A stretch of 64,000 nt of DNA from Ginglymostoma cirratum (GCA_024137785.1 JAHRHZ010000039.1:15175984-15239983), one strand, 5' to 3'. Positions 1,042 to 63,768 are shown, counted from the stretch's first letter. Translations and numbers: made by a program. The notes: generated by a model not told the origin, from the sequence alone.

Positions 1042-1252
1042 TTACTGCAGATGCTGGAATCTGTACTGAAAACAAAAAAATGCTGAAAATCATAGTGGGT
1101 TGGGCAGCATTCATGGAGAGAGAGCAAGCTAACGTTTTGAGTCTAGATGACTCTTCATCAACTCCGATAAAGAATCAATAGACTCAAAACATTTGCTTGC
1201 TCTCTGTCCATGAATGCTGCCTGACCCATTGTGATTTCCAGCATTTTTTTGT
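1042..1252. mobile_element. Head-to-head inverted pair of Penelope-derived repeats with decayed hammerhead cores
   Basis: Arms ~1072-1160 and ~1165-1252 are reverse complements. The minus arm reads TGATGA-A-GAGTC-ATCTA-GACTC-AAAA-CGTT. Confidence 0.7.
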
Positions 1253-2559
1253 TGTCAACTTGTGAATTTTCCTTTAAAGAAACTGCTGTTGTTATATCGT
1301 TATAAGACTCTCAACCAACCAGACCTTTAAAGTGTCAATAACAGAAACTATAAACAACTGACCCCCCTTTATCTTGTGCAAGTAAAAAATGAGCCATTCA
1401 CAATAGAGTACACAGTAAAAAATAAGCTTATTATAACATCATAAAGCTATCAGTCATGTATAGTTTTTCCTTTACCGCAGCTGTGTCACTAAGGGTAAAC
1501 TTTCTCTGGGAAAAGAAACTGCTGAAGTTTCTGCTTTTATTTCAGATCTCCAGCATCCGCAGTACTTCACTTTTATCCTTTTATGGGATTCTGGGCTGTC
1601 AGCCAAGCCTCCTTATGCTTCCTTAACTGAGAGTGCAGATACCCATAAAACGTTTGCCTTCTCCACATTGCTGGGGAGAAGTGGTTCATCACATTCTTTG
1701 CTTTTAAATACCCAACATCTAATAACTAATATCTTTGACCAAGCCTTCACGGTACCTTTCAATTCCATCCAATTTTGTAAGTTCCATGGCATAGGGAAAT
1801 TTAATCCGGTAGGAGAGGGGCTGATGGGATCACAACCACCACTCCACCTACACCCTGGCAAAGTTATTGGCCAGAAGGCTCATGGACTGCCTTCCTATCT
1901 TGCCGTTAATTGAATAGAATATAATAGAATATCCTTTAGTGTCAGAAAACCTTAAATAAGCAATTAATGCACAGTTCAAGACCTCATCTCACTGGTCACT
2001 GATATTAATACTGCAGGATGGGAACCTCATTCCAAAGGATTCAAAACTTGATCGAGGGACCCACCATCGGAAAGTATAGGCCTGCTAGGAGCCACCCTGC
2101 TGATAAACACTTCACTGCTCCCACTCCCCATCGTGGCATCACTCACCCAAGCCTGGGTCTCTCCTTGGCTCATGCTTTCAGTGCATGCAATTCCAGCACC
2201 AGCCACAGCCGCCTTGCTATGCTGCCATTTGGTGGAGTTGCTAGTCACTGATGGGCTGACAGTTCTTAGAATGCCGGACCTCCATGCACCCGGCAACTCT
2301 GGCCTTGTGAAAATCTGTTTGGTTAATTGCCTGCCTGGTACTTAATTTGGCAGGAAAGAGGACCTTGGCTGGCTTTTCAGCGGACAAGCTAGATTCCCAA
2401 GCTCCAATAAACACCTCCATTTTCCACATCTATTGTGTGACTTGAGTGATTTTCTTGCTTCAAGTGTGGCTGTTGTCTCAATGCCTTAGTGCTCATCAAT
2501 TGAAAACCTGCAAACCCAAAGGCTTAGGAACCCAGTGTTTAAAATTGTTTTAATTCTTA

Positions 2560-2775
2560 CAATGAATGTGGGGATCGCTGGCAAGGTCAAGATTTGTTGC
2601 CCACTCCCTTGAGCTGGTTGGGCCATTTCAAAGTGCTGTTAAAAGACAAACAATTTCTATGTGTTTGGAGTCACATGTAATCTAGACCAGTTGGATGGCA
2701 GATTTCCTTCCCTAATGTAGCTTAGAGAACCAGATGGATTTTTATGGCACTAGTTACATGCTCACCATTAAACTG
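2560..2775 (-). mobile_element. Degenerate SINE fragment (same family as 60830-61127)
   Basis: Shares ggagtcacatgta...ggatggcagatttccttcccta...aaccagatgg with copies near 35010-35260 and 60830-61127. Confidence 0.5.
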
Positions 2776-3069
2776 GCTAATTTAAATTAATAGGAATTAA
2801 TTTTCTTTGTATTTAGTCATGCTTTAATGGGGGACATTATATTGCTGTTCTTAAAACATTAGTTATGTCCCTTTACATTAGCGATTAGTTATGACAATTC
2901 CTGTAAGTGCAACAGTATTTTAATTCAGTGTTAACTGAAACAAACAGAGGCAAAGAAAGAGGAGGTCCATTGAGCATTATAATTCAGCTTCATATTAAGT
3001 CACTTGTCTGTGCAAATGTAAGAGATAGTTATCCCTGCCCTTTCCTTTGTTTGTCCAAGTACTTAATCT

Positions 3070-3356
3070 GCAGAGATAAAAGGTACTGCAGATGCTGGAG
3101 AATCCGAGATAACAAGCATGGGGCTGGATGAACACAGCAGTTCAAGCAGCATCATAGGAGCAGGAAAACTTGACGTTTCGGGCCTAAACCCTTCATCAGA
3201 AATGGGGGAGGGGAAGAGGGTTCTGAAATAAATAGGGAGAGAGGGCGAGGCAGATAGAGGATGGATAGAGGAGAGGACAGGTGCAGAGGAGGCAGACAAG
3301 TCGAAGAGGCGGGGATGGAGCCAGTAAAGGTGAGTGTAGGTAGCGGGGTAGGGAGC
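3070..3356 (-). mobile_element. Penelope-like pLTR fragment with an intact hammerhead core
   Basis: Minus strand 3203-3168 reads attt-CTGATGA-A-GGGT-TTAG-GCCC-GAAA-CGTC-aagt. It is preceded by a pyrimidine-rich segment and followed by the shared tail. Confidence 0.75.
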
Positions 3357-61402: not shown

Positions 61403-61790
61403 CATAGAACATAGAGCATAGAACAGTAAAGCACAGTACAGGCCCTTCGGCCCACAATATTGTGCCAACCTATTATCCTACTAAGATCAATCTACCCTGT
61501 GTACCCTACATTATACTACCCTCCATGTGCCTATCCAAGAGTCTCTTAAAAGTCTCTAATGTATCTGAGTCCACTACCACTGCAGCAGCGCATTCCACAC
61601 ACCCACCACTCTCTGTGTGAAGAACCTACCTCTGACATCTCCCCTATACCTTTCTCCAATCACCTTAACATTATACCCCCTCGTAATAGTCATTTCCACC
61701 CTAGGAAAAAGTCTCTAATTATCCACCCTATCTATGCCTCTCATCATCTTGTACACCTCTATCAAGTCACCTCTCATCCTTCTTCACTCC
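61403..61790 (-). mobile_element. CR1 LINE 3' part (outer element, split by a nested insertion)
   Basis: (TTCTATG)n-like tail at 61403-61423 and CR1 3' motifs; continues exactly at 63121. Confidence 0.85.
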
Positions 61791-63120
61791 TTTTATGAAT
61801 CATTTGGATAGCAGTAACAGGATAGGTCAGAGTCAGCATGGATTTACGAAGGGGAAATCGTGCTTGACTAATCTTCTGGAATTTTTTGAGGATGTAACTA
61901 TGAAGATGGTCAAGGGAGAGCCAGTGGATGTAGTGTACCTGGACTTTCAGAAAGCCTTTGATAAAGTCCCACATAGGAGATTAGTGAGCAAAATTAGGGC
62001 ACATGGTATTGGGGGCAAAATACTGACTTGGATTGAAAATTGGCTGGCTGACAGGAAGCAAAGAGTAGTGATAAACAGGTCCCTTTCGGAATGGCAGGTG
62101 GTGACCAGTGGGGTACCGCAAGGTTCGGTGCTGGGACCGCAGCTGTTTACAATATACATTAATGATATAGATGAAGGCATTGAAAGTAATATTAGCAAAT
62201 TTGCTGATGACACAAAGCTGGGTGGCAGTATGAAATGTGAGGAGGATGTTATGAGAGTACAGGGTGACTTGGACAGGCTAGGTGAGTGGACGGATGCATG
62301 GCAGATGCAGTTTTATGTGGACAAATGTGAGGTTATCCACTTTGGTGGCAAGAACAGGAAGGCAGATTACTATCTAAATGGAGTCAAATTAGGTAAAGGG
62401 GAAGTACAACGAGATCTAGATGTTCTTGTACATCAGTCAATGAAAGCAAGCATGCAGGTACAGCAGGCAGTGAAGAAAGCTAATGGCATGCTGGCCTTCA
62501 TAACAAGAGGAATTGAGTATAGGAGCAAAGAGGTCCTTCTGCAGCTGTACAGGGCCTGGGTGAGACCGCACCTGGAGTATTGTGTGCAGTTTTGGTCTCC
62601 AAATTTGAGGAAGGACATTCTTGCTATTGAGGGAGTGCAGTGTAGGTTCACGAGGTTAATTCCCGGAATGGCGGGACTATCATATGTTGAAAGATTGGAG
62701 CGACTGAGCTTGTATACGCTTGAGTTTAGAAGGATGAGAGGGGATCTGATTGAGACGTATAAGATTATTAAGGGATTGGACACTCTGGAGGCAGGGAGCA
62801 TGTTTCTGCTGATGGGTGAGTCCAGAACCAGAGGACACAGTTTAAAAATAAGGGGTAGGCCATTTAGAACAGAGTTGAGGAAAAAATTCTTCACCCAGAG
62901 AGTGATGGATATATGGAATGCTCTGCCCCAGAAGGCAGTGGAGGCCAAGTCTACTTTCAAGAAAGAGATGGATAGAGCTCTAATAGATAATGGAATCAAG
63001 GGTTACGGGGATAAGGCAGGAACAGGATACTGATTGTGGATGATCAGCCATGATCATAATGAATGGTGGCGCTGGCTTGAAGGGCCGAATAGCCTACTCC
63101 TGCACCTATTGTCTGTTGTC
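61791..63120 (+). mobile_element. Young 5'-truncated CR1 LINE with an uninterrupted RT frame (61795-63033, 412 aa)
   Basis: QHGFTKGKSCLTNL, YLDFQKAFDKV, GVPQGSVLGP, KFADDTKL, RPHLEYCVQFW, followed by a 3' UTR with GGGCCGAATAGCCTACTCCTGCACCTATTGTCT. Confidence 0.95.
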
Positions 63121-63490
63121 AATGAAAAAAGCCCTAGCTCCCTCAACCTTTCCTCATAAGACCTGCCCTCCAGTCCAGGCAGCATCCTGGTAAATCTCCT
63201 CTGCGCCCTCTCTAAAGCTTCCACATCCTTCCTGTAATGAGGTGACCAGAACTGAACACAATATTCTAAGTGTGGTCTAACCAGAGTTTTATGGAGTTGC
63301 AGCGTAACCTCACAGCTCTTAAACTCAATTCCACTGCCAATGAAATCCAACACACCATACACCTTCTTTACAACCCTATCAACTTGGGTAGCAACTTTGA
63401 GGGATCTGTGGACGTGGACCCCAAGATCCCTCTGTTCCTCCACACTGCCGAGAATCCTGCCATTAACCCTGTATTCTGCATTCAAATTCA
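63121..63490 (-). mobile_element. CR1 LINE 5' part (outer element)
   Basis: The minus ORF reads EEQRDLGVHVH...LVRPHLEYCVQFWSPHYRKD...YEERLRELGLFSL. Confidence 0.9.
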
Positions 63491-63493
63491 ACC

Positions 63494-63768
63494 TCAGTCC
63501 ACCTCTGATGAAGCCTGGGTGTTCTGTCCTGCTTGCTATTTATGTGTCTCAGTTTGCTGGGGTGGGTGGCATTTGTTTACAAATCCAGAAGTGATGCCAA
63601 CCGCTCAGCAAACCGAGACACGTAAGTAGCAAGCAGGACAGAACACTGACGCTTCATCAGAGGTGCACTGATGATGTTACCTAGCATGGTAATGAAGTGT
63701 CTGCGAACAAACTTATCAGCTCAGTTAGCACATCAACAACCTGAGCTACAAATCTTCTCAAAAACCTT
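63494..63768 (+). mobile_element. Penelope pLTR with a 5' inverted partial copy; decayed hammerhead
   Basis: Inverted arms ~63494-63572 and ~63594-63671. GTGCA-CTGATGA-T-GTTACC-TAGCAT-GGTAAT-GAAG-TGTC-TGCG. The tail acaacctgagctacaaatcttctcaaaaacctt matches the 20239 element. Confidence 0.75.

What the first reader, a model, noticed from the sequence alone, without database searches (positions are those of the whole stretch)
1042..63768. Dense population of short, TSD-flanked, hammerhead-bearing mobile insertions (Penelope-derived, at least four helix-II subfamilies)
Seen: about ten loci (1042, 3070, 6881, 17543, 20239, 28143, 29025, 43763, 55957, 63494) share CTGANGA-(A/T)-stem-GAAA-CGT(C/T). 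The stem changes sequence but keeps pairing (GGGT/GCCC, GAGTC/GACTC, GGGTC/GACCT, GTTACCA/TGGT(A/G)AC), which is covariation. Five have 12-14 bp TSDs, and the three ~100-bp sense copies start only 2-12 nt before the ribozyme core. Established: Penelope-like elements carry minimal type I hammerheads in their pLTRs, with a palindromic, nearly absent helix III thought to require dimerisation. Inference: sharks may host a very abundant class of non-autonomous ~100-170 bp ribozyme retroelements (retrozyme-like) mobilised by Penelope RT/GIY-YIG. I cannot tell from here whether these families are already described.
Basis: partly seen in the sequence, partly recalled or inferred. Interest (0 to 1): 0.78.

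Follow-up and report, generated by a model that had tools for sequence, protein, structure and literature searches.

The report
Short Penelope retroelement ends with ribozymes
These scattered short insertions are cut-down end pieces of a known kind of jumping gene (Penelope-like elements) that carries a tiny self-cleaving RNA motif; the unexplained part is that many pieces begin right in front of that motif.

Summary
The insertions are real. Fourteen pieces of four Penelope-like element (PLE) end families (A–D) lie in introns of a kainate-receptor gene. Five have exact 12–14 bp TSDs. The minimal hammerhead is real but intact in only 3–4 loci, not ten.

They are not a separate retrozyme-like class:
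- One copy carries the GIY-YIG C-terminus.
- Family A continues upstream of its longest window copy.
- A short copy is closer to the long copy (97%) than to another short one (85%).
- No copy is tandem, and 0 of 13 ends at the cleavage site.
- The two 3' ends 35 nt apart, one-sided tail and inverted arms are published PLE features.

Truncation is not random, though. 6 of 11 A/B/C copies start 2–9 nt before the ribozyme core (post hoc P about 1e-6). Unrelated PLE copies from metagenome contigs show a broader form (23 of 57 within 20 nt). My searches found no paper on this; the scan noted it before on other shark-like DNA (e1-7858714). The likeliest cause is reverse transcriptase running off the RNA's 5' end (about 0.4). 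Known kind, one testable quirk.

The parts
1..50 (+). Family A 3' end with tail, cut by the window start
   Evidence: 91% to 3071-3116 over 46 nt
1033..1255 (.). Family B head-to-head insertion: minus arm with tail (1033-~1162), plus arm without tail (~1163-1255). The arms meet about 2 nt before both ribozyme cores; both cores are mutated. TSD 1018-1032 / 1256-1270 (15 bp, 2 mismatches)
   Evidence: (I7)
1528..1577 (+). Old tail-only fragment of the A/B/C group, no TSD
3071..3354 (-). Family A long copy: tail end at 3071, intact hammerhead (C3 at 3199, cleavage site between 3172 and 3171), 155 nt of upstream pLTR. Only a 3-nt repeat at its ends. The family continues beyond 3355, and a contig of a relative joins 3069 to 3355 (probable empty site)
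   Evidence: (tables 5, 7)
6881..6974 (+). Family A short copy, 94 bp, starts 6 nt before C3 (6887), core and helix II intact, no tail. TSD 6867-6880 / 6975-6988 (14 bp exact)
14745..14866 (+). Old family C-like copy with tail; 5' end inside helix II (about +14); no TSD
17542..17643 (-). Family B short copy, about 100 bp, starts 7-9 nt before C3 (17634), core decayed, no tail; 7-bp flanking repeat (not above chance)
20239..20760 (.). Family D head-to-head insertion: minus arm 20239-20384 (no tail, C3 at 20311), plus arm 20385-20760 (tail, C3 at 20647); both hammerheads intact. TSD 20226-20238 / 20761-20773 (13 bp exact)
   Evidence: (I3, I10)
20391..20650 (+). Frameshifted C-terminal end of a PLE ORF (end of the GIY-YIG domain); the reading frame stops at the TGA inside the ribozyme core
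   Evidence: 48 relatives at E<=0.001; among 7 scanned, P0014 has RVT_1 + GIY-YIG and P0030 (832 aa) has RVT_1 with the match at its C-terminus; tblastn hits both frames, E 2e-25
28143..28311 (.). Family A head-to-head insertion: minus arm with tail ending 3 nt before C3 (28270); short plus arm 28274-28311 starting inside the core. TSD 28131-28142 / 28312-28323 (12 bp exact)
   Evidence: (I17)
29025..29132 (+). Family A short copy, 108 bp: 8-nt inverted micro-arm, then the sense arm from 4 nt before C3 (29037); no tail. TSD 29011-29024 / 29133-29146 (14 bp exact). 96.8% identical to the long copy at 3071
30052..30127 (+). Family A copy with tail, 5' end about 53 nt downstream of C3 (no ribozyme); no TSD
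43763..43862 (+). Family C short copy, 100 bp, starts 2 nt before the C3 position (43765, mutated); no tail. TSD 43749-43762 / 43863-43876 (14 bp exact)
55952..56750 (.). Old family C head-to-head insertion with long arms: minus arm with tail, about 345 nt upstream of C3; plus arm from about 56441. The far end of the minus arm reads ...NIEFNNFMA*, like the ORF end ...NIEFKFI of locus L119 (weak: 4 residues, right strand and place)
63489..63768 (.). Family D-related head-to-head insertion: minus arm stops 6 nt into the core; plus arm has a decayed core (C3 at 63668) and the tail; no TSD; abuts a CR1-like fragment
   Evidence: (I8)
22900..53385 (+). Host gene context: exons of a kainate-type glutamate receptor near 22.9-23.0 kb (Q/R-site exon), 26.6-26.8 kb and 53.1-53.4 kb; no PLE piece overlaps an exon found. 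The GRIK1 label is recalled.
   Evidence: Pfam Lig_chan E 4e-25 on the 26.6 kb exon; motifs

Best explanation
The insertions are dead-end products of autonomous, endonuclease-bearing Penelope-like retrotransposons: family D of Penelope/Poseidon type, and the related families A, B, C, probably of Neptune type (clade labels recalled). Steps: (1) The element's RT/GIY-YIG protein cuts AT-rich DNA with a stagger, giving 12-15 bp TSDs in about half the cases [shown: TSDs; enzyme inferred]. (2) It starts reverse transcription inside its RNA at one of two sites about 95 and about 130 nt downstream of ribozyme C3, giving copies without or with the 35-nt tail [shown: two ends; mechanism from PMC11167929]. 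(3) It copies uncleaved RNA through the ribozyme [shown: both sides of the cleavage site present, no end at it]. (4) In A/B/C roughly half of the cDNAs stop 2-9 nt upstream of C3, at the 5' edge of helix I; the rest run on and truncate at scattered places [shown in the window]. (5) The cDNA end is joined to the target, or to a second, oppositely primed or fold-back cDNA, giving head-to-head arms with the tail on one side [structure shown; route inferred]. For step 4 I think it likeliest (about 0.4) that the template ends there: the mRNA begins just before helix I in the upstream pLTR, so initiation near the mRNA's 5' end runs off after 95-135 nt, while initiation in a downstream tandem copy gives long truncated copies. 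The short copies lack the RNA downstream of the RT start and should not move again.
For: Coding link: family D carries the GIY-YIG C-terminus, and relative P0008 reads on through the same hammerhead. Family A continues past 3355, with concordant loose ends in all four runs (agreement 0.75-0.87). Two 3' ends: in run X1, 147, 70 and 39 contigs leave the element at 3071, 3072, 3073 and 33 at 3106 into long, diverse, A/T-rich flanks (agreement about 0.4). The tail is on one arm only at 1033, 20239, 28143, 55952, 63489, as in PMC8557442 Fig. 2 and PMC3846280. PMC4209133 already reports single minimal hammerheads as truncated PLEs and opposite-strand pairs 100-700 bp apart. Short copy 29025 is 96.8% to long copy 3071 but 85.1% to short copy 6881. 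5' clustering: 6 of 11 A/B/C insertions in an 8-nt zone, 0.3 expected (Poisson P 8e-7; 6 of 13 with D, P 3e-6; zone chosen after seeing the data). 5 of the 12 shown (of 33) joints in table 5c start at 3202-3204, and summed depth halves across the ribozyme in X1 (2.06M to 1.11M). In unrelated PLE copies, 23 of 57 end within 20 nt of C3, against 3-15% of those at risk in each later 20-nt bin; 11 of 62 have TSDs >=9 bp (null 4 of 150), bounding 87-226 bp units.
Against: No full-length autonomous partner of A, B or C was found (one search found nothing; no genome held), so their coding link rests on homology to long copies and a 4-residue motif. In the two DNA runs of the related organism B, depth does not fall across the ribozyme (X2: 3.5M downstream, 4.5M upstream; X19: 1.5-2.3M, 4.6M), and in X16 the fall is only 1.37M to 1.02M; the tool warns that contig depth is no copy number. 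No loose end near 3200-3210 is among the 24 of 937 rows shown. Family D arms do not cluster (about -73, -262, -85, -90). In D. virilis Penelope the start site lies 46 nt plus a 75-nt intron upstream of helix I (PMC2377424, PMC4209133), which does not fit an mRNA start at the ribozyme. Outgroup clustering is looser (median of the near ends about 10-13 nt), and upstream extents there can be underestimated. No RNA 5'-end data were available (all runs were contigs).
Confidence: 0.72

Rival explanations
1. Same identity (dead-end PLE ends), but the 5' hot spot is made during integration, not by the RNA's end: the cDNA snaps back or anneals at short palindromes or microhomologies at helix I, the protein-bound ribozyme releases the RT, or the element's own endonuclease trims the new DNA there.
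For: Three of the six clustered ends are inversion junctions (1033, 28143, 29025). In B the junction falls in the palindromic AGCT of helix I; at 43763 the target supplies bases that complete helix I. PMC3846280 reads junction palindromes as self-priming. In PMC11167929 the ribozyme cleaves only with protein and the nuclease prefers ATT, which family A has at -4 to -2.
Against: A structural stall would be expected on the 3' side of the fold, which the RT meets first, not after it has been copied (inference). B and C lack ATT there. Three clustered ends are plain junctions to the target.
Confidence: 0.3
2. One reading: an abundant class of self-propagating, non-autonomous 100-170 bp hammerhead retroelements (SINE- or retrozyme-like) moved in trans by PLE proteins.
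For: Short TSD-bounded copies with similar ends are common. pLTR sequences alone can be mobilised in trans (PMC3846280), non-autonomous PLEs are known in Chlamydomonas (PMC8557442), and tandem retrozymes derive from pLTRs (bioRxiv 10.64898/2026.07.22.740005). No autonomous A/B/C copy was found here.
Against: 5' ends differ from copy to copy (-2, -2, -3, -4, -6, -8); a short copy groups with the long copy; no tandem units; no end at the cleavage site (0 of 13); upstream sequence is abundant genome-wide; short copies lack the RNA 3' of the RT start.
Confidence: 0.08
3. Ordinary memoryless 5' truncation; the clustering is an artefact of noticing copies by their ribozyme.
For: PLEs are known for heavy 5' truncation (PMC8557442, PMC8969392). 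Organism B runs show no depth step. The sample is small and the zone was chosen post hoc.
Against: Copies were collected by homology along the whole module, which also found ribozyme-less pieces. The excess survives a 40-fold scan correction, and the outgroup hazard falls from 0.40 to 0.03-0.15 per 20 nt.
Confidence: 0.1
4. The 5' ends mark a 3' splice site at helix I, as for the D. virilis Penelope intron.
For: An AG lies just before the -2 position at 17542 (B) and, from the TSD, at 43763 (C); PMC4209133 maps the D. virilis intron end to the 5' end of helix I.
Against: Family A's nearest AG is about 25 nt upstream while its ends lie at -3 to -6; no shared upstream exon in the short copies; only 1 of 52 long outgroup copies has YAG within 12 nt of C3.
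Confidence: 0.05

Closest known systems
5'-truncated and inverted insertions of endonuclease-positive Penelope-like elements (pLTR, one-sided 30-40 bp tail, head-to-head arm; PMC8557442, PMC3846280, PMC8969392)
   Same: TSDs, tail on one end, head-to-head arms, junction palindromes, GIY-YIG C-terminus upstream of the pLTR (family D).
   Different: The passages read describe 5' truncation as variable; a peak of 5' ends at the edge of helix I is not stated in them. TSDs here are 12-15 bp against 8-10 bp in the rotifer examples.
Minimal type I hammerhead of metazoan PLEs (Cervera and De la Pena 2014, PMC4209133)
   Same: No loop 3 with palindromic ACGU, extra nucleotide between 9 and 10.1, G10.1-C11.1, short helix I, many sequence families per genome, mostly single motifs, opposite-strand pairs 100-700 bp apart.
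   Different: Sharks are not named in the parts read; families B and C have a GUU site; family A helix I is only 2-4 bp.
Poseidon from Anolis carolinensis (PAc; Frangieh et al. 2024, PMC11167929)
   Same: Two internal RT start sites defining the tail, AT-rich targets, uncleaved RNA as template, AC-rich start region in family D.
   Different: Shown in vitro for PAc, inferred here; the text read does not treat genomic 5' ends (its Fig. S2 is a picture that I could not see).
Metazoan non-LTR retrozymes (PMC7229834; bioRxiv 10.64898/2026.07.22.740005)
   Same: Non-coding, type I hammerhead, pLTR-related, TSDs longer than 4 bp; dispersed monomers are also reported.
   Different: Defined by head-to-tail tandem units of 150-450 bp (mostly canonical hammerheads) yielding circular RNAs; here the copies are solo or head-to-head, with minimal hammerheads and ends away from the cleavage site.

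Membership tests
Endonuclease-positive Penelope-like element (truncated copy) | Derived from an element with PLE-type RT and C-terminal GIY-YIG | tested here: met
   Family D:
Endonuclease-positive Penelope-like element (truncated copy) | Same coding link for families A, B, C | tested here: inconclusive
   One search found nothing; A continues upstream; 4-residue ORF-end likeness in C; no genome held
Endonuclease-positive Penelope-like element (truncated copy) | Optional 30-40 bp tail from two RT start sites | tested here: met
   Ends at 3071-3073 and 3106; window copies with and without tail
Endonuclease-positive Penelope-like element (truncated copy) | Inverted 5'-truncated arm and TSD | tested here: met
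   6 of 13 insertions with both ends visible have an inverted arm; 5 of 13 have exact TSDs of 12-14 bp
Endonuclease-positive Penelope-like element (truncated copy) | Partial-tandem full-length master (pLTR-ORF-pLTR) | not testable with these tools
   None in the window; no genome held
PLE minimal type I hammerhead | Core CUGANGA / GAAA / UH, extra nucleotide after A9, palindromic ACGU, helices I and II | tested here: met
   5 of 12 arms have a perfect core, 4 with helix II intact. In the reads N7 varies at 11-34% while, among the 40 rows shown, only the CpG changes elsewhere in the core (2-8%). Outgroup helix I of >=3 bp in 92 of 124 against 23.5 shuffled
PLE minimal type I hammerhead | Self-cleavage as dimer or with protein | not testable with these tools
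   Needs an in vitro assay; six monomers did not fold better than shuffles (z -0.96 to 1.44)
Non-LTR retrozyme | Head-to-tail tandem units, each with a hammerhead | tested here: not met
   No such array in the window; one contig joint 'goes back 41' is the only hint
Non-LTR retrozyme | Unit ends or permutation set by ribozyme cleavage; circular RNA intermediate | tested here: not met
   0 of 13 ends at the cleavage site; circular RNA itself could not be tested
SINE-like non-autonomous element | Own lineage with a fixed 5' end, separate from the autonomous partner | tested here: not met
   Short 29025 is 96.8% to long 3071 and 85.1% to short 6881; 5' ends vary. Only 5 family A copies compared

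The most novel reading that the evidence does not exclude
The pile-up of 5' ends at the upstream edge of the hammerhead is a general, undescribed property of hammerhead-bearing PLEs. The RNA starts at helix I, and internal initiation near its 5' end yields a 95-135 nt run-off ('strong-stop'-like) cDNA. That cDNA is integrated alone, head-to-head, or ahead of a full-length copy, which would explain how pLTRs and inverted pLTRs are regenerated, a step PMC2377424 calls unexplained.
Probability: 0.3. Interest if true: 0.6.

Novelty: new member of a known kind. Interest (0 to 1): 0.3.

Why it matters
As an inventory it is ordinary: more PLE families with minimal hammerheads, about 4.7% of this window (2,978 bp). 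The part of value is mechanistic. The PLE transposition cycle, the role of the ribozyme and the origin of pLTRs are open questions. A sharp, countable peak of 5' junctions at helix I, in a genome where 9,000-24,000 contigs per run match one family, gives a direct test of where the template RNA begins and whether cleaved RNA is ever used.

Tried and rejected
Whole genome: none held, so no genome-wide tabulation.

Rfam at E<=5: no hammerhead family; the miRNA hits are the hairpins of inverted copies.

Monomer folding of six copies: not more stable than shuffles, as expected for a motif without helix III; uninformative.

Pfam on the family D fragments alone: nothing. Protein search with the open frame across the long A copy, among longer proteins: 0 of 272 candidates; weak evidence, the frame is probably non-coding.

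Loose ends at 3171 (the cleavage site) in runs X2, X19, X16 look like cleavage-defined ends, but their letters continue the element (agreement 0.79-0.95, 13-17 nt). They come from a one-base indel, so I rejected them; likewise those at 3116-3123 and 3167.

Splice-acceptor origin of the 5' ends: rejected as a general cause.

Covariation of helix II pair 2 in the outgroup: Fisher P 0.085, not significant; pairs 1-3 were partly fixed by my search pattern; free pair 4 pairs in 46 of 58.

The metagenome scan found no copies of the window's families, only matches over the ribozyme core in the part of the output shown.

Look-ups of earlier findings by sequence and by place found nothing.

Paper searches for shark PLE descriptions: 1 review, listing only; 0; 0. 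For 5'-end clustering or PLE mechanism; nothing stating it in the listings or in the text read. Repbase, Dfam and subscription journals were not searchable.

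
Full report
Setting. The window is 39.6% GC and lies across a kainate-type glutamate receptor gene. No genome is held.

Observation. Self-comparison and sensitive BLAST give 14 pieces in four families, 2,978 bp in all. A, B and C are related to each other (64-77%); D is separate. 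Five insertions have exact TSDs of 12-14 bp, against a maximum of 9 bp in 300 random pairs, and one has 15 bp with two mismatches. The strict minimal hammerhead occurs four times against none in 200 shuffles. Of 12 arms scored, 5 have a perfect core and 7 carry 1-4 substitutions. So the motif is real, but 'ten loci share it' holds only for decayed copies. Helix II changes between families and keeps 5-7 pairs in the best copies. Rfam does not detect the motif.

Identity. The D copy at 20239 includes the frameshifted C-terminus of a PLE ORF. It has 48 relatives at E<=0.001; of 7 proteins scanned, 4 have RVT_1 and 2 a GIY-YIG match, one of these above Pfam's cut-off; tblastn covers both frames. 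The frame stops at the TGA of the ribozyme core, and relative P0008 reads through the same hammerhead. For family A I laid contigs of four public runs on 3030-3420 (9,034-24,061 contigs per run). Contigs leave the element at two places, 3071-3073 and 3106, into diverse A/T-rich flanks. This is the optional tail that PMC11167929 ties to two internal RT start sites. At 3355 all four runs continue with one shared sequence, so the family is longer than any window copy. One contig of the related organism joins 3069 to 3355, a probable empty site. In the ribozyme core, the free position N7 varies in 11-34% of depth, while among the 40 rows shown (24 hidden) only the CpG changes elsewhere. Six of 13 insertions have an inverted arm, five with the tail on one side, the layout in PMC8557442 and PMC3846280. 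For A, B, C no full-length partner was found.

Separate class? Short copy 29025 is 96.8% identical to long copy 3071 and 85.1% to short copy 6881 (five A copies compared). 5' ends differ between copies. No tandem array of the module exists, and 0 of 13 ends lies at the cleavage site. PAc needs 172 nt of ORF on its template although RT starts at 111-118 (PMC11167929); by analogy, copies that end at the RT start cannot move again. The retrozyme and SINE-like tests are therefore not met.

What remains unexplained. 5' ends of the main arm relative to C3 are -2, -155, -6, +14, -8, -3, -4, +53, -2, -348, +85 for A/B/C, and -262, -85 for D. Six of 11 fall at -2 to -9, where a constant hazard predicts 0.3 (P 8e-7; with D, 6 of 13, P 3e-6; zone chosen post hoc; an earlier run gave 5e-5 after a 40-fold correction). 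The copy at 1-50 was left out because the window cuts it. In one search, 5 of 12 shown joints (of 33) begin at 3202-3204, and depth halves across the ribozyme in X1. It falls less in X16 and not at all in the two organism B runs, and contig depth is not copy number.

Outgroup. 96 motifs fell into 12 clusters of three or more. I dropped 13 second arms or duplicates and 5 with under 100 nt upstream, leaving 78: 30 end within 20 nt of C3, 15 are inverted, and downstream extents peak at 50-69 and 100-119 nt past the cleavage site. Among the 57 with a long partner of at least 85% identity, 23 end within 20 nt, against 3-15% of those at risk per later 20-nt bin. 11 of 62 non-inverted copies have TSDs of 9 bp or more (null 4 of 150). 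Long copies carry GIY-YIG coding sequence upstream. The short, TSD-bounded, ribozyme-headed form is thus general to such PLEs.

Mechanism. Shown: staggered-cut TSDs, two 3' ends, copying through an uncleaved ribozyme, a preferred 5' stop, head-to-head arms. Inferred: PLE RT/GIY-YIG as the agent for A/B/C, and the cause of the stop. I favour run-off at the RNA's 5' end (about 0.4) over snap-back, barrier or trimming during integration (about 0.3), chance (0.1), a self-propagating class (0.08) and a splice site (0.05; 1 of 52 long outgroup copies has YAG within 12 nt). Against run-off: D. virilis Penelope starts about 120 nt upstream of helix I (PMC2377424, PMC4209133), and family D shows no clustering.

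Literature seen. PMC4209133: parts 1-2 of 4, through the discussion. PMC11167929: parts 1-2 of 4, the whole main text, plus passages; supplement 2 held no text, and its Fig. S2 coverage plot may bear on 5' ends. bioRxiv 10.64898/2026.07.22.740005: parts 1-3 of 5; supplements closed; it reports retrozymes in one chondrichthyan. Passages only: PMC8557442, PMC3846280, PMC7229834, PMC8969392, PMC2377424. Searches showed no description of these families or of the 5'-end peak; Repbase, Dfam and subscription journals were out of reach. Earlier notes of this scan on other shark-like DNA reached the same reading and raised the template-end idea; they are not independent support.

Verdict. Observation partly confirmed, interpretation partly supported. 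New members of a known kind; interest 0.3, carried by the 5'-end peak.

Noticed in passing
window 22900-23020, 26613-26830, 53155-53385 (+): Exons of a kainate receptor gene, including the Q/R-site exon (genomic Q). The 152-bp, 91.5% hairpin at 20233-20726 and the opposite-strand A copies at 28143 and 29034 (758 nt apart) lie in its introns and could form double-stranded pre-mRNA; any effect on editing is speculation.
   Followed up: no
window 20647-20650: The family D ORF ends at the TGA of the ribozyme's CTGA core; the sequence 25 nt upstream holds the reverse complement of a CTGATGA box in both D copies.
   Followed up: partly
window 61705-63033 (+), 63054-63490 (-): A 442-codon open RT fragment (Pfam RVT_1, E 3e-25; CR1-like by recall) sits tail-to-tail with a second, inverted fragment that abuts the D-related insertion at 63489.
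   Followed up: partly
window 30804-30950 and 31556-31702: 147-bp inverted arms, 92% complementary, 605 nt apart, made of LINE 3'-end-like sequence beside a TTCTTTG tandem tail.
   Followed up: no
window 6975, 28312, 43863: The first bases of the right-hand TSD resemble the element's own continuation (3, 6 of 7, and about 2-4 nt), hinting at target-template microhomology at the priming end, which PMC11167929 did not need in vitro.
   Followed up: no
window 33953-34048 / 63889-63984 and 8888-8948 / 48787-48847: Two other dispersed repeat pairs (86% and 79%) without the hammerhead module.
   Followed up: no
L003 and L035: These two outgroup loci share about 600 nt downstream of the hammerhead but only about 70 nt upstream, as expected for an upstream pLTR followed by the element body.
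   Followed up: no
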